A stretch of 44,379 nucleotides of DNA from a virus: IMG/VR virus record IMGVR_UViG_3300045988_028516, positions 1 through 44,379 of that record; one strand, given 5' to 3'. A program made the translations under genes and the position numbers. The notes beneath the pieces were generated by a model. That model did not search any database, had not been told where the DNA came from, and saw only the letters and a program-made list of their open reading frames with translations. Below, piece after piece: positions 2,856 to 25,270 of this stretch. Each line of letters starts with the position of its first letter. The first letter of the stretch is position 1.

Positions 2856-3320
2856 TCGCGAGTTCGACGCCATTTGAAACAGCCTGTAAAATTTCCTTTT
2901 CAGACAACATGGGAATATCTCCTTTCGCAGCAATGGATTTTTTCTGGATCTGTTTATATATCTAATAATAGAACCTATGTTCCAATAAGTCAACTCGCGT
3001 GATGCACAAAAACCGATGCGTGAACTCTACGTCGCAAAACACGAAAAGTCCGATTTTTCGGACAGTGTATGTGATAAAATCACAACGGGAATATTTTTTA
3101 GAAAGAAGCTGGTGCTATGAATGATGTTTCTCCCCGTGCCAGCGAAAAACACTGACACGGGGATTTTCATGCAAGCGATTGGGAGCGCTTTGCATGTATC
3201 TATCGTATCAAGTGGCAGAAGATATTACCATGAGCAGAGTTGAGAAAGCGCCGCCATTTGTGCGAAACCGTTTACTCAGCTTTGCTATTTTTATTCAAAA
3301 ATGCGTATGGAGGCGTTAAT

Positions 3321-3914
3321 GTGCAGAATTCGTTGCAAAAACTATCGCCGTACATAGACGATTTTCAGTGCAGAATACGGCGAGAAAAGGACGCGAAGGG
3401 ATTTACCATCAATACACTGGCTGACGCGGCGGGCGTGCCCGTTACAGCCGTCGGGAGAATAAATGCAGGCACACAGACGGATGTAAAACTAGCCTACGCA
3501 GCGGCGCTCTGTGACGCTCTGGGGCTGTCCCTCGATAAACTAACAGGACTATCGACACCGACCGGAAACGAGCCGGAATTACTGGAAAAGGCGCATCGGC
3601 TCGAACTTGAGAACACAGAACTCGCCGGAGAAAACACACGCCTGCAAAGTGAAGTAGAACATCAAGCAGAAAAGGCCGCGTTGCTGCAAGCTCAGCTCAC
3701 AACACGTCGGCCTGTTATTTATACACTTTTATGCTCATGCGCGGTCATGGCGTTCGCGCTTCTGGTTTATATCATCCTCGACATTCGTGTTCCAGACGTC
3801 GGGCTGATCGTGCATGGCGACGTCAGCACGGCGGCGTGGATCGTTATCGGCATGATCGTAGCGGCGAGCGGAATCATCGCATGGTCTTTAGTCAAAACAA
3901 TTAGGAGGAGATAA
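3321..3914 (+). CDS. Membrane-anchored XRE-type HTH protein (HTH, coiled coil, two TM helices)
   Basis: GTG 3321 lies 8 nt after GGAGG. The HTH is GFTINTLADAAGVPVTAVGRINAG. There is a heptad-like ELENTELAGENTRLQSEVE segment and two C-terminal hydrophobic helices. Confidence 0.7.
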   Translation: MQNSLQKLSPYIDDFQCRIRREKDAKGFTINTLADAAGVPVTAVGRINAGTQTDVKLAYAAALCDALGLSLDKLTGLSTPTGNEPELLEKAHRLELENTELAGENTRLQSEVEHQAEKAALLQAQLTTRRPVIYTLLCSCAVMAFALLVYIILDIRVPDVGLIVHGDVSTAAWIVIGMIVAASGIIAWSLVKTIRRR

Positions 3915-4936
3915 TGGCGATTCCGAAATATTATGTTCGCCCTGACGGGCTTCATGAGTCTATCATCACGATAAACGGTAAGCGGAAAGCATTCAGAGGA
4001 AAAACAGACCGTGAAGTGTGGACAAAAATCAAGAACTACAAAGCAGAGGCAGAAAGCGGAAGGACGGACACCTTTGAGAACGTCGCGCACGATTGGTGGT
4101 GCGAGATCGAGCCGACGCTTGCGCCGAACTCCTTGCGAAACTACTCCCCAGCATACGAACGTGCAGTGTCCGAGTTCGGGAAAGCGGACGTTGCGAAGAT
4201 CACAGCGAAGGAAATCGAAAAGTACATAAACCGTTTTGCGAAAACGTATGCGAAAAAGACGGTCATCACCCAGCGGCAAATCATTCGGCAGATCATGAAC
4301 AAAGCCCAGCGTGAAGGATACATACAGTACAATCCAGCGGAGGCTGTCTTGCTCCCGAAAAACCTACCTCAGAAAAAGCGGCACGCACCAACACAGGATC
4401 AAATTCAGAAGATAAAGGACAGCGTAAATGACGAGTTCGGCCTTTTTGCTTTTCTGATTTATTATACCGGCTGCCGCCGAGGTGAAGCGCAAGGACTTAT
4501 GTTTGAGGACATTGACCGGAAGAAAAAGAGAATTCGCATCCAGCGAAGCGTATATAACACCGGGCCGAAGCCACAAATCAAGCTCCCGAAGACAGAGGCC
4601 GGAATTCGTTCTGTGCCATTATTATCCGCGTTGGAAGATATACTACCAGATAAAAAGCATGGGTACATTTTTTCCCCGGACGGCGGCGCATCGCCATTCC
4701 CCGGATGGAAACTGGATGATTTATACGCCGGATACAAAATGAGGACCGGAGTTACCGCATCGCCGCACGTAATCCGGCACGGCTACGCTTCAGCGCTTTA
4801 CGAGGCGGGCGTTGACTGGAAAACGATGCAGCAACTTCTTGGACACGCGCAACTCGCAACCACGATGGACACGTATGCAGAGATTTTTGACAAGCGCATT
4901 GACGAAGCAGCCGACCAGATGAATGCAAGATTCTAG
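3914..4936 (+). CDS. int: Tyrosine recombinase / phage integrase
   Basis: C-terminal catalytic pattern: GCRRGEA, HVIRHGYASALYEAGV, LLGHAQLATTMDTYAE. The ATG overlaps the upstream stop and follows GGAGGAG. Confidence 0.92.
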   Translation: MAIPKYYVRPDGLHESIITINGKRKAFRGKTDREVWTKIKNYKAEAESGRTDTFENVAHDWWCEIEPTLAPNSLRNYSPAYERAVSEFGKADVAKITAKEIEKYINRFAKTYAKKTVITQRQIIRQIMNKAQREGYIQYNPAEAVLLPKNLPQKKRHAPTQDQIQKIKDSVNDEFGLFAFLIYYTGCRRGEAQGLMFEDIDRKKKRIRIQRSVYNTGPKPQIKLPKTEAGIRSVPLLSALEDILPDKKHGYIFSPDGGASPFPGWKLDDLYAGYKMRTGVTASPHVIRHGYASALYEAGVDWKTMQQLLGHAQLATTMDTYAEIFDKRIDEAADQMNARF

Positions 4937-5226: not shown

Positions 5227-5688
5227 TCAGCGCTCCACGATCCCCCTATAATATGCGCACAGTTTTTCCTCCGGGCCGGGGCCGTCCTTGTCCGTCAGAA
5301 ACGCCTCTGCCAAGGCGGCGTAAAACTCCGGGCGGTTCACTCCGAAGTCCACGGCCACACCGTAGTAATCGGAGTACATCATGTTCATCGCCACGCCCCA
5401 CGCCCAGCGGGGGACGTCGCGCCCGATGCCGCGCGCATCCGCCACGGCAGACGTTTGGTCCATCGTCCAGTGCGGGCCGGTCGAACCGTCGGCATTCTCC
5501 ATCTTCGCCGCCCATTCCTCCGCGTCCTCGCGCGTCAGCCCATCGCAGGCTCCGTGCCGCCTTTCCAGCTTTTCCAGCGCACGGATTGTGCCAGCGTATA
5601 CACCGGCCTCCTCGGCGCGGCAGAGCGTCACAGGGCGCTCCGTGACGGCCTCCAGCTCCTTGTACAGCTTTTCGATATACTCTCTCAT
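5227..5688 (-). CDS. Hypothetical protein (cargo cassette gene 3)
   Basis: ATG 5688 lies 6 nt after AGGAGG. 153 aa beginning MREYIEKLYKEL, with a Trp/Tyr-rich core WAWGVAMNMMYSDYYG. Confidence 0.65.
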   Translation of the reverse strand: MREYIEKLYKELEAVTERPVTLCRAEEAGVYAGTIRALEKLERRHGACDGLTREDAEEWAAKMENADGSTGPHWTMDQTSAVADARGIGRDVPRWAWGVAMNMMYSDYYGVAVDFGVNRPEFYAALAEAFLTDKDGPGPEEKLCAYYRGIVER

Positions 5689-5689
5689 G

Positions 5690-6028
5690 TCACGCCTCCT
5701 TGATGTATCTGTACAGCTTATCGAGATCGCCCACATCAAAGCGCAGTTCGCCGAGGATGGGCACGTTCACCGGCAGCTTCTGCCCGTCCATCTTCGGCCG
5801 GGCGGCATTGTACAGCCGGTCAATGTCGATGTTTCCTGACTCGTCCATAACGCCCATGAGCTGCACCGCCGGATGCTCGCGCAGCTTCATGAGGCGGTCT
5901 TTGCCGCCGTCCATGATAAGCGCCAGCGCAATGCCTGCGCCGATGCCCTTGCCGGTCGGCAGGTGCGGGATGACCTCGTTATCTGCAAACCGCATCGCGC
6001 CGCGCATGGCCTGATCGATCGTTACCAT
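5690..6028 (-). CDS. Hypothetical protein (cargo cassette gene 2)
   Basis: 112-aa ORF with SD GGAGGT 6 nt before the ATG. Confidence 0.6.
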   Translation of the reverse strand: MVTIDQAMRGAMRFADNEVIPHLPTGKGIGAGIALALIMDGGKDRLMKLREHPAVQLMGVMDESGNIDIDRLYNAARPKMDGQKLPVNVPILGELRFDVGDLDKLYRYIKEA

Positions 6029-6051
6029 AAGGATACCTCCATCTTATTTTT

Positions 6052-6075
6052 GGGGCGGCGCTTGCCGCCCCTTTT
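6052..6075 (+). other. GC-rich hairpin between cassette genes (terminator-like only in the plus orientation)
   Basis: GGGGCGGC gctt GCCGCCCC followed by TTTT on the plus strand. There is no U-tract on the minus strand. Confidence 0.4.
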
Positions 6076-6078
6076 GCA

Positions 6079-6576
6079 TTAAGTGGTCGCCGTTGCAGGC
6101 TCAACCGTCACTTTCGCCGCACCCCAGCCGGGGCACACGGAAGCGTTCGGCACGACGAGCTTCGTCAGCCCGAGCAGCTGATTCACCTGGTTCTGGATGC
6201 AGCCGATCGTCGCAGTGGTGGTGCCGTTGTACACGGCCTGCTGCATGTTGATCGCCACCTGCTCATCCTTGTTCGCGCGGACTTCTGCCGCCAGACCGAT
6301 CAGGCGGTTTTCGAGCTTGCTGTAGGACTCCGTGATCTTTCTGTTTGTTTCGTCCTGACCGCGCCAGTAGGAGATCTCCATGTCCTTCTCCGAGATGGTT
6401 TTCTGCTGGTTGAGCTCGTAGCGCGAGACCGGCGTGTTCTCGCTGCACACCGCCGCCGGGGCCATGCCCCAACCGCCGAGCAGGTTGCCAAGCCCACCGC
6501 CGAGTACGCCGAGGCCGGTTCCGATCGCGCCGAGCGTAACACCGAGATTGCCCTTGCCGTTACTTGCGTATTCCAT
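6079..6576 (-). CDS. Hypothetical protein with a Gly-rich hydrophobic N-terminus and a coiled-coil middle (cargo cassette gene 1)
   Basis: 165-aa ORF with SD GGAGGA 7 nt before the ATG. The N-terminus is GNLGVTLGAIGTGLGVLGGGLGNLLGGWG. Confidence 0.65.
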   Translation of the reverse strand: MEYASNGKGNLGVTLGAIGTGLGVLGGGLGNLLGGWGMAPAAVCSENTPVSRYELNQQKTISEKDMEISYWRGQDETNRKITESYSKLENRLIGLAAEVRANKDEQVAINMQQAVYNGTTTATIGCIQNQVNQLLGLTKLVVPNASVCPGWGAAKVTVEPATATT

Positions 6577-6745
6577 AAATAGTTCCTCCGAATCAAAAAG
6601 TAAGCTGGCCAGCTCCTATCCTCATTATGCGCCAGCCAGAAAATCTAAGGGATGCATTTGTGTGCGTTTGTGCTGTATTTGTGTGCGATTCCGATAAGTT
6701 ATATTTCCGTGTCGTTCCATGTCGTAAAAAAAGTTTCGATTCCGC

Positions 6746-6773
6746 TTGATTTTCATCTACAACATGCTATACT
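6746..6773 (+). promoter_or_regulatory. Promoter of the type III TA locus
   Basis: TTGATT, 16 nt, TGcTATACT (extended -10). Confidence 0.6.
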
Positions 6774-6835
6774 AAGGGTGCAGAGAGATCTGCATATATA
6801 AAGTGACGAACACTGCCTGTTCATCACCGCCCATC

Positions 6836-6909
6836 AAAGCGGAAAACCCTTGCCGTTAAGTAGGGAATGAAAAAAGCGGAAAACCCTTGCCGTTAAGTAG
6901 GGAATGAAA
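6836..6909 (+). ncRNA. ToxI/antiQ-like repeat RNA antitoxin (two abutting perfect 37-nt repeats)
   Basis: AAAGCGGAAAACCCTTGCCGTTAAGTAGGGAATGAAA at 6836..6872 and again at 6873..6909. It sits directly upstream of a terminator and a ToxN-family ORF. Confidence 0.7.
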
Positions 6910-6926
6910 AAATTGCATGGGCAATC

Positions 6927-6961
6927 AAAAGCGGGACGGCGTACACTGTCCCGCTTTTACT
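6927..6961 (+). terminator. Rho-independent terminator between the repeats and the toxin ORF
   Basis: AAAAGCGGGAC, 10-nt loop, GTCCCGCTTTT. Confidence 0.75.
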
Positions 6962-6980
6962 TTGCAAGAAAGGTCGAAAC

Positions 6981-7493
6981 ATGGAAAAACTGAGCATTTA
7001 CAGAATATCTGATAAATACATACATTTTTTGCACTCACGTGACAAACGCGTCCAGTTTAACAAGGACGCAAGAAGACCGTATGTCGGCGTCGTTTTGCTT
7101 GTCGGAGAATATCGATATTTTGTTCCAATGGAGTCTCCGAAGCCAAACCATGTTAGAATTAAGCCTGGAATTCACATATTCAAATTAGACGACGGAAAAC
7201 TCGGGATTCTTGGTTTCAACAACATGGTTCCCGTCCCTGATTGTGCCCTTATTAGATTTGATATTGATGACGAGACGGACGCCCAATACCGCGCACTTCT
7301 ATATAACCAGCTTGTCGAGATTGATCGCAACCGTGCTTCTATTTTCCAGAGATCCGCGAAAACGTATTTTGAGGTTGTCAACAAGAAAAACACATTTCTC
7401 TGTAATATCTCATGCGACTTTAAGACGCTCGAACGTGCCAGCAAGAGATATGATCCAAATTACATATGGAAGAACGCGAAGCCCGAGGCATAA
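6981..7493 (+). CDS. toxN: ToxN/AbiQ-family type III toxin (endoribonuclease)
   Basis: 170 aa. By eye it is collinear with ToxN/AbiQ: IYRISDKYIHFL, RPYVGVVLLVGEYRYFVPMESPKPNH, FKLDDGKLGILGFNNMVPV, YRALLYNQLVEI, CDFKTLE. Confidence 0.8.
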   Translation: MEKLSIYRISDKYIHFLHSRDKRVQFNKDARRPYVGVVLLVGEYRYFVPMESPKPNHVRIKPGIHIFKLDDGKLGILGFNNMVPVPDCALIRFDIDDETDAQYRALLYNQLVEIDRNRASIFQRSAKTYFEVVNKKNTFLCNISCDFKTLERASKRYDPNYIWKNAKPEA

Positions 7494-7507
7494 TGCCCCG
7501 GGCTTTT
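7479..7507 (+). terminator. Terminator hairpin overlapping the toxN stop codon
   Basis: AAGCCCGAGG, 7-nt loop, CCCCGGGCTT, then TTTT. Confidence 0.6.
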
Positions 7508-7508
7508 G

Positions 7509-7757
7509 CTATACGATATTCAGCCTTTTTGCCGTCCTGCGCGCCTCGTTTATGCTGTGTACAAGCCTCCGCGAGATCGTCGACCGGTCCATGTGCATCT
7601 CCGCCGCGATCTCAATCTGCGGCAGCCTGTCCATGACGTACATCCGCATGATCTGCCGATCTTCCCGGCCAAGCATCGCCTGCCCAAGGACGCGCTCCCA
7701 ATCGCCCGCCAGTAAGGTTTGCATCTCCACTGGTAGATTTACGCGCCCTCTTGCCAT
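7509..7757 (-). CDS. Small sigma-70 region-4-like HTH protein
   Basis: 82 aa. REDRQIMRMYVMDRLPQIEIAAEMHMDRSTISRRL resembles sigma region 4 / LuxR-type HTH. Confidence 0.55.
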   Translation of the reverse strand: MARGRVNLPVEMQTLLAGDWERVLGQAMLGREDRQIMRMYVMDRLPQIEIAAEMHMDRSTISRRLVHSINEARRTAKRLNIV

Positions 7758-7792
7758 TCGCGCCTCCTTTCGGCGCGCAGGACGGCGCAGGC

Positions 7793-8488
7793 TTACTTCG
7801 TTTCCAGCACGGCGATATTGCCCTTGTTGCTGACCTTCAGGCCGAGCGCTGCGGCGATGTCGCGCACCTTGACATAGTTTGTGCCGTTTTTCAGGATGCG
7901 CTCCACGGCGACCTCCTTGCCGTCCACGATCATTCTCGACTTTTCAACCACTTCATCATCAATCCTTTCCTTGAATCTCGCCCACTGCACGTTGCCGGAC
8001 GTGTTGTAGTGGGTGTTAATATCGTCCCCGACAAATGGCCTCGGGCACATCTTGCCCGACACGTCGTAGTGACGGATGACGTGATCCGCCGGGATGTTGT
8101 ACTGCTTCATGAGCCGCCGGATGAGCCACACGGCGTTTTCAAGCGTCTGCTCGTCAAAGTACCAGTCCGTGTCATACGCGCCGAGACGCGCCTTGTTGAC
8201 CTTCCTCGGGCGTACCTCCACGCCGATGGAATTCCAGTTCCGGCATTCCGGGTGCTTCTGTCCGTCTCCGCAGTGCCACGCAATGTCGGACTCCTTCACG
8301 CAGCGGTATATGACGTTGCCCTCATCCACGGCATAGTGGGCGCTGGCTCTGGCCTGCGGATTTTTAAACCACTCGGCCACGCTTGCCGCCGTGCCGAGCG
8401 CGCCGAAATAATGCACCACGATGTATTTCGGGCGGCAGCCGCCCTTGCTGTGGTTGCAGCTCGTCAGAGCGTCCTTAATTACCGGCAT
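7793..8488 (-). CDS. Endolysin: N-acetylmuramoyl-L-alanine amidase (Amidase_2/PGRP type) with a C-terminal wall-binding domain
   Basis: YIVVHYFGALG...SAHYAVDEG...IAWHCG...IGVE is the amidase_2 pattern. An alternative start exists at 8521. Confidence 0.88.
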   Translation of the reverse strand: MPVIKDALTSCNHSKGGCRPKYIVVHYFGALGTAASVAEWFKNPQARASAHYAVDEGNVIYRCVKESDIAWHCGDGQKHPECRNWNSIGVEVRPRKVNKARLGAYDTDWYFDEQTLENAVWLIRRLMKQYNIPADHVIRHYDVSGKMCPRPFVGDDINTHYNTSGNVQWARFKERIDDEVVEKSRMIVDGKEVAVERILKNGTNYVKVRDIAAALGLKVSNKGNIAVLETK

Positions 8489-8699
8489 CTCCCGCGCCGC
8501 CTCCTTTCTCGTCCACCGCATCCTGAAGCTTCTGGCTCTGCGTTCCGAAGTAGAACGCGATGATGACTGCGTAGATGGTCATGAAGTCCTGCGAGATCTT
8601 GCCAACGACCGCCATGTAGGCGAACACGCCCGTCAGCACCAGCGTCACCAGCGACTTCACGCTCAGCAGATTCCCCAGCCGTTTCTTGATATTATCCAT
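8475..8699 (-). CDS. Holin (two TM helices)
   Basis: ATG 8699 lies 7 nt after GGAGGG. 74 aa with two hydrophobic helices and a charged C-terminus, immediately upstream of the endolysin. Confidence 0.75.
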   Translation of the reverse strand: MDNIKKRLGNLLSVKSLVTLVLTGVFAYMAVVGKISQDFMTIYAVIIAFYFGTQSQKLQDAVDEKGGGAGDAGN

Positions 8700-8958
8700 C
8701 GTATGTCCCTCCATCTTCTTTGTCGTTCGGTTTTGCAAATACACGTTTTACAAGCAGGAGCAGCAGCTCCCCGCCGAAGGCCGCGCCCGCGAACACCAGC
8801 ACGTCCGAAAGGTCGCACGTCCGGTCGAGCAGCAGCGCCGCCGTCTTGACGACCATCGCCCACGCGAGCGCCGCCGTCAGCGCCCAGAGGCAGTAGTACA
8901 CCAGCTCCCGCGCCATCTTGCCCTTGGTCACGCGCGACTTCTTCACGATCTTCGGCAT
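8692..8958 (-). CDS. Holin-like / XhlB-like membrane protein
   Basis: 88 aa with two hydrophobic helices, lying between the XhlA-like gene and the holin. Confidence 0.6.
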   Translation of the reverse strand: MPKIVKKSRVTKGKMARELVYYCLWALTAALAWAMVVKTAALLLDRTCDLSDVLVFAGAAFGGELLLLLVKRVFAKPNDKEDGGTYDG

Positions 8959-24862: not shown

Positions 24863-24939
24863 TGGTGGGCCGTCTCGGAGTCGAACCGAGATATTACCGT
24901 TTATGAGACGGTCGCTCTAGCCATTTGAGATAACGGCCC
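24863..24939 (-). tRNA. tRNA-Met/Ile2 (anticodon CAT), CCA encoded
   Basis: Acceptor GGGCCGT/ACGGCCC, anticodon arm ACCGT-CTCATAA-ACGGT, T arm CTCGG-TTCGACT-CCGAG, then ACCA. Confidence 0.88.
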
Positions 24940-25194: not shown

Positions 25195-25270
25195 TGGCGG
25201 GGCATGAAGGATTTGAACCTCCGACCGTCGGATTAACAGTCCGATGCTCTTCCAACTGAGCTAATACCCC
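25195..25270 (-). tRNA. tRNA-Asn (anticodon GTT), CCA encoded
   Basis: GGGGTAT-TA-GCTC-AGTTGGAA-GAGC-A-TCGGA-CTGTTAA-TCCGA-CGGTC-GGAGG-TTCAAAT-CCTTC-ATGCCCC-G-CCA. Confidence 0.9.

What the first reader, a model, noticed from the sequence alone, without database searches (positions are those of the whole stretch)
6746..7507. Phage-borne type III toxin-antitoxin locus (ToxIN/AbiQ-like) with a 37-nt, two-copy RNA repeat
The sequence shows four elements in order. First, a good promoter: TTGATT, 16 nt, TGcTATACT. Second, two perfect abutting 37-nt direct repeats, AAAGCGGAAAACCCTTGCCGTTAAGTAGGGAATGAAA. Third, a strong intrinsic terminator. Fourth, 20 nt later, a 170-aa ORF that is collinear by eye with ToxN/AbiQ (IYRISDKYIHFL, YFVPMESPKPNH, LGFNNMVPV, YRALLYNQLVEI). 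This matches the diagnostic type III TA architecture: a repeat RNA antitoxin, a leaky terminator, and an endoribonuclease toxin that processes the repeats. The A-rich repeat junction (GAAUGAAA/AAAGCGG) fits the A-rich cleavage sites of this family. The locus lies on the strand opposite the late operon, between the lysis genes and att. A prophage could therefore express it to abort infection by competing phages. The period and copy number (37 nt, 2.0 copies) differ from ToxI, which as I recall has a 36-nt unit in about 5.5 copies, and from antiQ, which as I recall has a 35-nt unit in about 2.8 copies. It may therefore be a separate subfamily.
Basis: partly seen in the sequence, partly recalled or inferred. 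Interest (0 to 1): 0.85.

Follow-up and report, generated by a model that had tools for sequence, protein, structure and literature searches.

The report
Phage-carried ToxIN RNA–protein toxin–antitoxin locus
This is an ordinary, intact member of the known ToxIN/AbiQ family of RNA-antitoxin/RNase-toxin pairs, carried as accessory cargo by a temperate human-gut phage; its 37-nt repeat length and two-copy count do not mark it as a new type.

Summary
The window has a promoter-like site (6746-6773), two perfect 37-nt units (6836-6912), a strong terminator hairpin (6927-6958) and a 170-aa ORF (6981-7493).

The ORF is a full-length ToxN/AbiQ toxin. Pfam PF13958 gives E=8e-45. The AlphaFold model (pLDDT 90.6) matches only the four solved ToxN/AbiQ structures, at TM 0.74-0.83.

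Across 68 distinct units from relatives, covariation supports a ToxI-type pseudoknot rather than the minimum-energy hairpin.

The locus lies between the lysis genes and the integrase of a temperate phage. Dozens of related IMG/VR phage contigs carry it at the same site.

The suggested "separate subfamily" is not supported:
- 37 nt x 2.1 falls inside the published toxIN range (31-62 nt, 1.9-5.6 copies).
- Nearly all relatives have three units.
- Assemblies encoding the identical toxin show 1, 2 or 3 perfect units, and one has a scaffold gap inside the array.
- The exact protein is already in GenBank as "Toxin ToxN [Caudoviricetes sp.]".

Extras found here:
- a conserved two-hairpin 5' leader;
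- a natural toxN-deletion variant that keeps toxI, in three assemblies;
- other cargo at the same hotspot.

Toxicity, RNA processing and phage exclusion remain untested.

The parts
6746..6773 (+). Sigma-70-type promoter: -35 TTGATT, 16-nt spacer, extended -10 TGcTATACT
   Evidence: 9 of 12 consensus matches, TG extension. A -35/-10 pair ends 5-7 nt before the first leader hairpin in 20 diverged relatives. The transcription start was not mapped.
6780..6793 (+). Leader hairpin 1 (GCAGA-GAGA-UCUGC), probably at the very 5' end of the transcript
   Evidence: Fold (leader -15.9 kcal/mol, z = -3.9). The same hairpin occurs in 20 of 20 diverged leaders. Covariation on a sequence-only alignment: pair 10:19 is G-C in 10 and A-U in 7 sequences; score 0.311 against 0.227 shuffled, 0 of 500 shuffles as high.
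6803..6827 (+). Leader hairpin 2 (GUGA.CGAAC ... GUUCA.UCAC)
   Evidence: A second hairpin, usually opening GUGA and closing UCAC, is predicted at this position in all 20 diverged leaders. MAFFT could not align it, so no formal pair count was made.
6829..6834 (+). 5' strand (GCCCAU) of a possible long-range helix that closes the whole repeat array
   Evidence: It pairs with AUGGGC at 6917-6922 in the centroid fold. Relatives L022 and L034 have GCUCGUG paired with CACGGGC, and the L043 group has GCCCAUG paired with CAUGGGC. That amounts to one compensatory A-U to G-C change. The evidence is thin.
6836..6872 (+). ToxI unit 1 (37 nt). Its 5' side follows CAUC, so only three A's precede G4 and there is no full A-tract
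   Evidence: Pseudoknot: C5-G7 (6840-6842) pair with C18-G20 (6853-6855), and C12-U15 (6847-6850) pair with A27-G30 (6862-6865), supported by covariation.
6873..6909 (+). ToxI unit 2 (37 nt), identical to unit 1 and flanked on both sides by GAAUGAAA|AAAG A-tracts
   Evidence: The junction A's are conserved (A2, A3 and A36 invariant, A37 in at least 90% of 68 units).
6910..6926 (+). AAA (the 0.1 copy, which completes the last A-tract) plus the spacer UUGCAUGGGCAAUC
   Evidence: The AUGGGC box is kept in relatives in which the local UUGC/GCAA hairpin is not.
6927..6964 (+). Intrinsic terminator between toxI and toxN. Its 5' arm starts with AAAGCGG, the same motif that starts a repeat unit
   Evidence: -21.2 kcal/mol, z = -5.75. 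A terminator whose 5' arm begins AAAG[C/A]GG, or a close variant, follows the array in nearly every relative. Readthrough ('leakiness') is inferred from the ToxIN paradigm, not shown.
6968..6973 (+). Shine-Dalgarno-like GAAAGG, 7 nt before the ATG
   Evidence: Read directly from the sequence. The same AAGGUCGAA-N-AUG context occurs in the phage relatives that share the gene order.
6981..7493 (+). toxN: 170-aa ToxN/AbiQ-family endoribonuclease toxin
   Evidence: PF13958 E=8.1e-45, covering profile positions 1-159 of 159. PADLOC AbiQ 1.5e-44. PDB 4ATO 1.6e-21. AF2 model pLDDT 90.6. Foldseek: 4ATO, 7D8O, 2XD0 and 4GLK at TM 0.74-0.83, with nothing else below E=0.1. pN 0.10-0.30 against pS 0.63-0.91.
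7476..7509 (+). Hairpin that spans the toxN stop codon and reaches the first base (7509) of the convergent gene's stop codon. It is a probable 3' terminator
   Evidence: -21.7 kcal/mol, z = -4.5. It is retained at the deletion junction of the toxN-deleted variants.

Best explanation
This is a complete ToxIN-family type III toxin-antitoxin locus carried as accessory cargo by a temperate phage of human-gut Bacillota.

Proposed mechanism:
1. One promoter drives a transcript that starts with two stem-loops and then runs through the tandem ToxI units. There are two units in this assembly and three in almost all relatives.
2. Most transcripts stop at the strong terminator. A minority read through and are translated into ToxN, so the antitoxin RNA is made in excess.
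3. ToxN is an endoribonuclease. It cuts the precursor in the six-A tracts between units, which releases about 37-nt RNAs.
4. Each released RNA folds into a small pseudoknot and binds ToxN, holding it inactive.
5. If synthesis of the unstable RNA stops, ToxN is freed and degrades RNA. This could happen when a superinfecting lytic phage shuts off host transcription, or after the prophage is lost. The result is an aborted infection or a penalty on cured cells.

Status of each step:
- Shown here: family membership of the toxin by sequence and predicted fold; the locus architecture; the conserved pseudoknot, by covariation; the conserved A-tract junctions; purifying selection on toxN; the position in a variable cargo site of a prophage.
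- Inferred from the characterised ToxIN/AbiQ systems: RNase activity, the cleavage site, terminator readthrough, complex formation, the trigger, and the phage-exclusion phenotype.
For: Toxin:
- Searches give full-length ToxN/AbiQ profile and PDB sequence matches.
- Searches give a confident model whose only significant PDB neighbours are the four ToxN/AbiQ structures.
- S52, K54 and R32 align with ToxN_Pa S53, K55 and K33, and S52 aligns with the essential AbiQ Ser51 (alignments; residue roles from PMC5086642).

RNA:
- on 68 distinct units, 92.3% of cells are paired against 76.7% when shuffled. The covariation score is 0.437 against 0.146 (0 of 500 shuffles as high), and slid controls reach at most 0.094.
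- All four core hairpin pairs show double changes with no unpaired cell.
- Pseudoknot pair 5:20 is C-G in 58 units and A-U in 10, with none unpaired.
- The loop lengths (3-4, 2 and 5-6 nt) fit the ToxI template of Blower 2012.
- The junction A's are invariant or nearly so. This matches the A/AAAA and A/AAA specificities of ToxN_Bt and AbiQ.

Function is maintained:
- pN is 0.10-0.30 against pS 0.63-0.91; dN/dS is 0.04-0.24 in the five gene pairs where dS could be estimated.
- Every toxN locus whose upstream sequence was available has a repeat array.
- The only partial form seen lacks toxN but keeps toxI. That is the asymmetry expected for a toxin-antitoxin pair.

Context:
- Repressor-like HTH gene and tyrosine integrase at 3240-4936; amidase endolysin and holin-like genes at 7793-8744.
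- The same gene order is seen in about 50 IMG/VR contigs.
- The locus sits inside 110-kb and 340-kb bacterial contigs.
- GC is 0.43 against about 0.60 in the flanks.
Against: - Nothing functional was tested.
- Thr52 of the ToxN_Pa active site is Glu51 here, and this Glu is invariant in the clade. Tyr29 lies in a segment that this clade lacks. The active site therefore differs in detail.
- Unit 1 has no full A-tract on its 5' side. In a two-unit array only one unit would be released with both ends processed.
- By analogy with antiQ, removing one repeat kept the antitoxin working but lowered phage resistance (PMC5086642). If the two-unit array is real, it may be a weakened allele.
- Phage exclusion has not been shown for any member of this clade. 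In Blower 2012 the cptIN loci tested, which came from gut Firmicutes, gave no phage resistance in E. coli.
Confidence: 0.85

Rival explanations
1. The main role is addiction: the locus stabilises the prophage (post-segregational killing or growth arrest of cells that lose it) rather than excluding other phages. The molecular mechanism is the same; the selective benefit differs.
For: ToxIN_Pa and CptIN_Er raise plasmid retention, and ToxIN_Bt stabilises a plasmid through sporulation (PMC5086642). The locus lies within about 1.8 kb of the prophage end. It has stayed at one site while ToxN diverged to about 60% identity.
Against: The site is a variable cargo hotspot. Close relatives carry other genes there or have lost toxN, so the phage does not depend on the locus. 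An integrated prophage is rarely lost by mis-segregation. The two roles do not exclude each other.
Confidence: 0.3
2. The repeat array serves the phage as a counter-defence: a supply of ToxI that neutralises the ToxN made by related resident prophages, so that the phage can superinfect ToxIN lysogens. On this view toxN is secondary.
For: Phage TE escapes ToxIN_Pa by expanding or acquiring ToxI-like repeats (PMC5086642). A near-identical phage variant has a clean deletion of about 475 bp that removes toxN but keeps the promoter, leader, perfect ToxI units and terminator. It is found in three independent assemblies: L101/L112, L113 and L114.
Against: In this window toxN is intact and under strong purifying selection. 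9 of 12 contigs anchored on the neighbouring gene keep toxN. Simple loss of a costly toxin explains the deleted variants equally well.
Confidence: 0.1
3. This is a distinct subfamily of type III systems, set apart from ToxIN/AbiQ by its repeat period and copy number.
For: The clade has its own invariant active-site motif, PMESPK, with Glu where ToxN_Pa has Thr. It has a conserved two-hairpin leader that is not part of the ToxIN locus description in Blower 2012. Its best PDB relative is only 30% identical.
Against: The period and copy number fall inside the published toxIN range. The toxin matches PF13958 end to end, about 128 bits above the family threshold. The RNA fits the published ToxI pseudoknot template. 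The copy number is not stable.
Confidence: 0.1
4. This is a decaying or silent remnant. An array contracted to two units marks a locus that is being lost.
For: The array has one unit fewer than the three found in the rest of the clade. toxN-deleted alleles exist in the same phage population.
Against: The ORF, ribosome-binding site, promoter, leader and terminator are all intact and identical to those of the three-unit alleles. The exact protein occurs in 306 blocks of the public assembly collection. antiQ with one repeat removed is still a working antitoxin. The two-unit count may simply be an assembly collapse.
Confidence: 0.05

Closest known systems
ToxIN_Bt of Bacillus thuringiensis plasmid pAW63 (PDB 4ATO)
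   Same: It is the best sequence and fold match (E=1.6e-21; profile E=7e-32; TM 0.81; 30% identity). It shares the FNKD..RPYVG and YFVP..S motifs. The locus order is the same: promoter, short tandem RNA repeats, terminator, toxin. The usual copy number is about 3 (2.9 in ToxI_Bt). It cleaves in an A-tract (A/AAAA), which matches the AAAAAA junction here.
   Different: Its unit is 34 nt, not 37. It is on a plasmid, not a phage. Its active-site loop reads PLTSRNDK where this locus has PMESPK. No structured two-hairpin leader is part of the generic locus description in the papers read here.
AbiQ/antiQ of Lactococcus lactis pSRQ900 (PDB 4GLK)
   Same: Same fold (TM 0.81). The essential Ser51 aligns with S52 here. 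It has 35 nt x 2.8 repeats and A/AAA cleavage. It is the PADLOC model that this protein hits. Experiments show that adding or removing one repeat is tolerated by the antitoxin but lowers phage resistance, which bears directly on the two-unit versus three-unit alleles seen here.
   Different: 23% identity; plasmid-borne; different repeat sequence.
ToxIN_Pa of Pectobacterium atrosepticum pECA1039 (PDB 2XD0/2XDD) and E. coli ToxIN (7D8O)
   Same: Same fold (TM 0.74-0.79). Same architecture and same pseudoknot topology: two nested 3-4-bp stems with loops of 3-4, 1-2 and at most 7 nt.
   Different: 36 nt x 5.5 repeats; AA/AU cleavage; active-site Tyr29 and Thr52 have no conservative counterparts here; proteobacterial plasmid.
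toxIN on Clostridium botulinum phage D-1873 (a plasmid prophage), and tenpIN loci in viral genomes
   Same: These are phage-borne type III systems. D-1873 was the single phage entry among 67 toxIN loci in Blower 2012. It is also one of only three GenBank phage records with a relative of this toxin (36.7% identity). A 2025 survey reports 42 viral tenpN loci and says no other phage-borne type III system had been reported (PMC12283969).
   Different: The locus studied here sits in an integrating temperate phage lineage of the human gut. It is fixed at one site, between the lysis cassette and the integrase, in dozens of IMG/VR contigs.

Membership tests
toxIN family of type III TA systems (Blower et al. 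2012; Pfam PF13958) | The toxin is a ToxN/AbiQ homologue | tested here: met
   PF13958 at 153.3 bits (cut-off 25), covering profile positions 1-159 of 159. PADLOC AbiQ. All four solved ToxN/AbiQ chains are the only PDB sequence hits.
toxIN family of type III TA systems (Blower et al. 2012; Pfam PF13958) | ToxN fold: a twisted antiparallel beta core with surrounding helices, including the long helix H3 | tested here: met
   AF2 model pLDDT 90.6, pTM 0.85. Foldseek TM 0.74-0.83 to 4ATO, 7D8O, 2XD0 and 4GLK. The next hits are MazF/Kid at E>0.1. This is a predicted structure, not a solved one.
toxIN family of type III TA systems (Blower et al. 2012; Pfam PF13958) | A tandem array of short direct repeats immediately upstream of the toxin gene, with length and number in the family range (31-62 nt; 1.9-5.6 copies) | tested here: met
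   37 nt x 2.1 at 6836-6912. The range comes from Table 2 of PMC3401426. Relatives have 36-37 nt x about 3.
toxIN family of type III TA systems (Blower et al. 2012; Pfam PF13958) | A palindromic terminator between the repeats and the toxin gene | tested here: met
   Hairpin at 6927-6958, -21.2 kcal/mol, z = -5.75, followed by a U-rich tail. It is conserved in position in relatives. Termination efficiency was not measured.
toxIN family of type III TA systems (Blower et al. 2012; Pfam PF13958) | The repeat RNA folds as a ToxI-type hairpin pseudoknot: two nested 3-4-bp stems with loops of 3-4, 1-2 and a variable number of nt | tested here: met
   Stems 5-7:18-20 and 12-15:27-30 with loops of 4, 2 and 6 nt. 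The covariation score is 0.437 against 0.146 shuffled (0 of 500), with double changes in five pairs. The nested minimum-energy alternative shows no covariation (0.133 against 0.129). Base triplexes cannot be assessed.
toxIN family of type III TA systems (Blower et al. 2012; Pfam PF13958) | Active-site residues (ToxN_Pa Tyr29, Lys33, Thr52, Ser53, Lys55; AbiQ Ser51) | tested here: inconclusive
   S52 aligns with Ser53 and with AbiQ Ser51, K54 with Lys55 and R32 with Lys33, and all three are invariant in 33 relatives. The Thr52 position is Glu51, also invariant. Tyr29 lies in an insertion that is absent here (residue list).
toxIN family of type III TA systems (Blower et al. 2012; Pfam PF13958) | The toxin is an endoribonuclease that processes its own repeat precursor at an A-rich site | not testable with these tools
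   Only indirect evidence is available: the AAAAAA unit junction is conserved and resembles the A/AAAA and A/AAA sites of ToxN_Bt and AbiQ.
toxIN family of type III TA systems (Blower et al. 2012; Pfam PF13958) | The toxin is toxic and is neutralised by the cognate repeat RNA | not testable with these tools
   Indirect evidence: no toxN was found without an upstream array, whereas toxI without toxN occurs in three assemblies.
Abortive-infection systems (AbiQ/ToxIN phenotype) | Reduces plating of phages by killing or arresting infected cells | not testable with these tools
   No host or phages are available. The prophage location is compatible with this role but proves nothing.
cptIN and tenpIN families of type III TA systems | A CptN- or TenpN-type toxin with longer repeats (40-48 nt and 39-57 nt respectively) | tested here: not met
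   The only Pfam and PADLOC hits are ToxN_toxin and AbiQ. The 37-nt unit is shorter than either range. CptN and TenpN profiles as such were not available as separate named models.

The most novel reading that the evidence does not exclude
In this gut phage lineage, the site between the lysis cassette and the prophage end may be an arena of phage-versus-phage conflict. It holds the full ToxIN in some contigs, a toxI-only allele (toxN cleanly deleted, RNA array and promoter intact) in others, and unrelated cargo in others. The toxI-only phages could be natural antitoxin carriers that superinfect ToxIN lysogens, a wild counterpart of the laboratory phage TE escape mutants. In addition, the conserved two-hairpin leader, and perhaps an array-closing helix, could be an undescribed layer that sets ToxI stability or processing in this clade.
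Probability: 0.2. Interest if true: 0.55.

Novelty: new member of a known kind. Interest (0 to 1): 0.3.

Why it matters
For annotation, the result is simple: this is a ToxIN/AbiQ-type defence or addiction module, and the upstream repeats should be annotated as its RNA antitoxin.

Three points have some wider value.

First, phage-borne toxIN loci are barely mentioned in the literature read here: one botulinum phage in 2012, and a 2025 statement that none had been added since. Yet at least 79 IMG/VR contigs carry relatives. One temperate gut-phage lineage keeps the locus at a fixed site while ToxN diverges to about 60% identity. Prophages therefore look like a long-term reservoir of type III systems in gut Bacillota.

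Second, perfect short tandem arrays are mis-counted by short-read assemblers. Here the count is 1, 2, 3 or a gap for the same locus. Copy number in a metagenomic contig should not be used to define subtypes.

Third, the naturally occurring toxI-only alleles and the conserved structured leader are cheap experimental leads into how phages carry, regulate and evade these systems.

Tried and rejected
- Rfam. No family matched the repeats or the leader at E<=10. All hits were sub-threshold matches to the terminator hairpin. I do not know whether Rfam holds a ToxI model.
- Simple terminator scan. It missed both hairpins and instead called leader hairpin 2 on the minus strand. I treated that call as an artefact of an inverted repeat.
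- Minimum-energy fold of a single unit. It gives a 6-bp hairpin in a different register, with z = -0.58. Covariation does not support it, so I rejected it in favour of the pseudoknot.
- MAFFT plus RNAalifold on 20 leaders. It predicted no pairs because hairpin 2 was misaligned. I fell back on folding each leader separately and on a pair count for hairpin 1 only.
- Genome-contig scan with the single protein. No systematic host assignment was therefore possible.
- Supplementary tables of Blower 2012. They are not held, so I could not check whether this ToxI sequence type was already catalogued in 2012.
- The convergent 82-aa sigma-70-region-4-like gene (7509-7757) as a possible third component. 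I rejected this. It accompanies ToxIN only within the phage lineage that shares this gene order, it is absent from the other ToxIN contexts, and it persists where ToxIN is replaced by other cargo.
- PADLOC on eight neighbouring ORFs. Only marginal hits (E>0.002), so no second defence system was identified next to the locus.
- A search for further ToxI-like units elsewhere in the window found none.
Full report

Yes. Tandem Repeats Finder reports a 37-nt unit, 2.1 copies, 100% identical, at 6836-6912. The 30-nt core of the unit occurs only at these two places in the 44-kb window, and none of 100 shuffles produced a match.

A sigma-70-like promoter (TTGATT, 16 nt, TATACT with a TG extension) lies at 6746-6773. 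That scan alone is no better than chance: 2 sites were found against 1.6 expected.

The hairpin at 6927-6958 folds at -21.2 kcal/mol with z = -5.75, and a U-rich tail follows it. The simple terminator scan missed it. My reading is that the maximal stem swallows the first four U's, so the scan's T-count window fails.

**2. The protein**

- The ORF matches Pfam ToxN_toxin (PF13958) end to end: E=8.1e-45, 153 bits against a cut-off of 25.
- It matches the PADLOC AbiQ model at 1.5e-44.
- Its only PDB sequence relatives are the four ToxN/AbiQ entries. The best is ToxN of B. thuringiensis (4ATO, 1.6e-21; 7e-32 with a profile).
- An AlphaFold2 model built on 33 relatives has pLDDT 90.6 and pTM 0.85.
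- Foldseek against the PDB returns exactly those four structures, at TM 0.74-0.83. The next hits are MazF/Kid at E>0.1, which is the known distant relationship.

The active site can be compared with ToxN_Pa (Tyr29, Lys33, Thr52, Ser53, Lys55) and with the essential Ser51 of AbiQ (PMC5086642).
- Conserved: S52, K54 and R32 here align with Ser53 (and AbiQ Ser51), Lys55 and Lys33. All three are invariant in the clade.
- Different: the Thr52 position is an invariant Glu51. Tyr29 falls in a segment that is absent here.

Comparison with phage-borne relatives shows strong purifying selection. pN is 0.10-0.30 while synonymous sites are near saturation (pS 0.63-0.91). dN/dS is 0.04-0.24 in the five pairs where dS could be estimated.

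**3. The RNA**

I collected the regions upstream of toxN relatives from 79 IMG/VR contigs and one MAG. Almost every distinct locus has three units of 36-37 nt that begin AAAG[C/A]GG. This includes loci whose units are too diverged for Tandem Repeats Finder to detect.

An alignment of 68 distinct units (A2) supports a pseudoknot.
- Stem 5-7 pairs with 18-20, and stem 12-15 pairs with 27-30.
- 92.3% of cells are paired, against 76.7% when shuffled.
- The covariation score is 0.437 against 0.146 (0 of 500 shuffles as high), and slid controls reach at most 0.094.
- All four core hairpin pairs show compensatory double changes and no unpaired cell.
- Pseudoknot pair 5:20 is C-G in 58 units and A-U in 10, with none unpaired.

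The minimum-energy hairpin for a single unit uses a different register. It has z = -0.58 and no covariation (0.133 against 0.129).

The loop lengths (4, 2 and 6 nt) fit the ToxI structural template described by Blower et al. 2012: two nested 3-4-bp stems with loops of 3-4, 1-2 and at most 7 nt (their 'Group I').

The unit junction is a run of six A's. A2, A3 and A36 are invariant and A37 is present in at least 90% of units. This matches the A/AAAA and A/AAA specificities of ToxN_Bt and AbiQ.

Unit 1 is preceded by CAUC rather than an A-tract. It probably stays attached to the leader.

**4. Copy number and the 'separate subfamily' idea**

Blower 2012 Table 2 gives the toxIN family a repeat length of 31-62 nt (mean 38.1), 1.9-5.6 copies (mean 2.8) and a mean toxin length of 168 aa. 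A locus with 37 nt x 2.1 copies and a 170-aa toxin is typical.

The two-copy count is also not robust. Among ten assemblies that encode the identical toxin:
- the perfect unit occurs once in two MEGAHIT k141 contigs;
- it occurs twice in three contigs;
- it occurs three times in four contigs, including a 340-kb NCBI contig;
- one scaffold has 100 N's inside the array.

IMG/VR contigs with the same toxin likewise show 2 or 3 units. Relatives whose units differ in sequence cannot be collapsed by an assembler, and they have three units.

The window's unit differs by one base from unit 3 of the relative whose toxin is 82% identical. The array in this sub-lineage has therefore been homogenised recently. 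That makes it prone both to real slippage and to assembly collapse, and I cannot tell which applies here.

By analogy with antiQ, one repeat fewer still neutralises the toxin but lowers phage resistance, while 0.8 of a repeat is lethal (PMC5086642).

**5. Context**

The window is a temperate phage.
- A repressor-like HTH gene (3240-3914) and a tyrosine integrase (3914-4936) lie on the plus strand.
- An amidase endolysin (7793-8521), a holin-like gene and tail genes lie on the minus strand.

The TA locus is on the plus strand. It lies between a small sigma-70-region-4-like gene (7509-7757, minus strand) and three minus-strand genes of unknown function (5227-6576). Its GC is 0.43 against about 0.60 in the flanks.

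The exact protein occurs in 306 blocks of the public assembly collection. These include 110-kb and 340-kb bacterial contigs with host genes beside the element. Matching contigs are labelled human gut metagenome.

About 50 IMG/VR contigs share the same gene order, with ToxN at 60-100% identity and the flanking genes diverged to a similar degree. The locus is therefore an old resident of this phage lineage.

In other viral contigs, toxIN relatives lie next to an integrase gene (L001, L021, L075).

GenBank phages contain only three relatives: pCD1602_4, C. botulinum phage D-1873 and Fusobacterium phiFN37.

**6. Is it already known?**

The identical protein is in NCBI nr as DAG07772.1 and DAI60277.1, 'MAG TPA: Toxin ToxN, type III toxin-antitoxin system [Caudoviricetes sp.]', and elsewhere as 'protein AbiQ'.

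In the literature read here, phage-borne toxIN is represented by phage D-1873 alone. A 2025 paper states that no other type III system had been reported in phages before its own viral tenpN survey (PMC12283969).

This is therefore a new, unremarkable member of a known kind. The only modest novelty is how common it is in phages.

**7.

(a) Leader. The transcript should begin with two stem-loops, at 6780-6793 and 6803-6827. Twenty diverged leaders all fold into this two-hairpin form, with z between -1.5 and -6.9. Hairpin 1 covaries even on a sequence-only alignment. A 5'-terminal stem-loop would be expected to stabilise the RNA; that is an inference.

(b) Possible array-closing helix. The linker GCCCAU (6829-6834) is complementary to AUGGGC (6917-6922) just after the array. 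Relatives show GCUCGUG paired with CACGGGC, and GCCCAUG paired with CAUGGGC. That is a single compensatory change, so the evidence is weak.

(c) Terminator arm. The 5' arm of the terminator begins with the unit-start motif AAAG[C/A]GG, or a close variant, in nearly every locus.

(d) Variation at the site. Anchoring on the neighbouring sigma-like gene gave 12 contigs.
- Nine carry ToxIN.
- Two carry unrelated cargo at the same site.
- One has a clean deletion of about 475 bp that removes toxN but keeps the promoter, leader, ToxI units and terminator.
- The same deletion junction occurs in two further human-gut assemblies.

No toxN without toxI was seen. This asymmetry is what a toxin-antitoxin pair predicts. 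It also shows that the phage can do without the locus.

**8. Mechanism and verdict**

The best-supported account is the standard ToxIN mechanism, placed in a prophage.
- The ToxI precursor is transcribed constitutively.
- The terminator limits readthrough into toxN.
- ToxN cuts the precursor in the A-tracts.
- The pseudoknot RNAs sequester ToxN.
- ToxN is released when ToxI synthesis stops. The cited trigger for ToxIN is shutoff of host transcription by an infecting phage (Guegler and Laub 2021, as cited in the bioRxiv paper read).

The identity of the locus is secure (about 0.9). Its biological role cannot be resolved without experiments: exclusion of other phages, prophage stabilisation, or both.

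Interest is low to moderate (0.3). Its novelty argument was not.

Noticed in passing
L101 3230-3760 (= L112 about 7650-8020); L113 and L114 around 1090-1116: A near-identical phage variant has a clean deletion of about 475 bp that removes toxN (ATGGAAAAACTGAGCATTT|GAAGCCCGAGGCATAA). It keeps the promoter, leader, 2-3 perfect ToxI units, terminator and ribosome-binding site. The same junction is present in one IMG/VR contig and two independent human-gut metagenome contigs.
   Followed up: partly
L105 3250-4650; L110 3250-4480: At the same site (between the sigma-like gene and the Gly-rich 165-211-aa gene), two related phages carry different cargo instead of ToxIN. One has an HTH-like 112-aa ORF, a Cys-rich 201-aa ORF and a 97-aa ORF. 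In the other the first two are fused into a 238-aa ORF. The site behaves as a variable cargo hotspot. These ORFs were not identified.
   Followed up: no
L090-L099, about 400 nt upstream of position 3001: For one and the same locus (identical ToxN, identical flanks), the number of perfect 37-nt units in public assemblies is 1, 2 or 3. One scaffold has a 100-N gap inside the array. The two single-unit contigs are both MEGAHIT k141 contigs.
   Followed up: yes
window 6780-6835: A structured 5' leader with two hairpins lies between the promoter and the first ToxI unit. Its architecture is conserved in 20 of 20 diverged relatives. Many leaders end in a pyrimidine-rich CACCUCCUUU-like linker that resembles the 3' end of 16S rRNA. 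This leader is not part of the ToxIN locus description in the papers read here.
   Followed up: partly
window 6829-6834 with 6917-6922: GCCCAU just before the array is complementary to AUGGGC just after it, and the complementarity is kept with one compensatory change in relatives (L022, L034, L043 group). This may be a helix that closes the whole array. In the class with 36-nt units, the linker is instead partly complementary to the 5' arm of the terminator.
   Followed up: partly
window 6653-6686 and 6705-6725: Two short 10-nt tandem repeats (TGCATTTGTG x3.3 and TTCCATGTCG x2.1) lie in the intergenic region between the divergent minus-strand gene (start at 6576) and the toxIN promoter. They are conserved in close relatives and could be operator or binding sites.
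   Followed up: no
window 7131-7145 (codons 51-55 of toxN): The active-site loop reads PMESPK in all 33 aligned relatives. A Glu occupies the position of the catalytic-site Thr52 of ToxN_Pa, and the segment that holds Tyr29 is absent.
   Followed up: partly
L096 4722-4922; L097 4722-4922: Some close relatives carry a 66-aa gene with a Pfam Acb2_Tad1_hairpin hit (the anti-CBASS/anti-Thoeris sponge family) between the holin-like gene and the next gene. The window appears to lack this roughly 200-bp gene.
   Followed up: no
window 24863-24939 and 25195-25270: Two phage-borne tRNA genes (tRNA-Met CAT and tRNA-Asn GTT) lie on the minus strand, in the middle of the phage genome.
   Followed up: no
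window 6746-7507 and the equivalent region of 11 related loci: The toxIN module has a lower GC content than its surroundings in every context examined, by 3-15 percentage points. This holds even in the phage lineage where it appears to be an old resident.
   Followed up: partly
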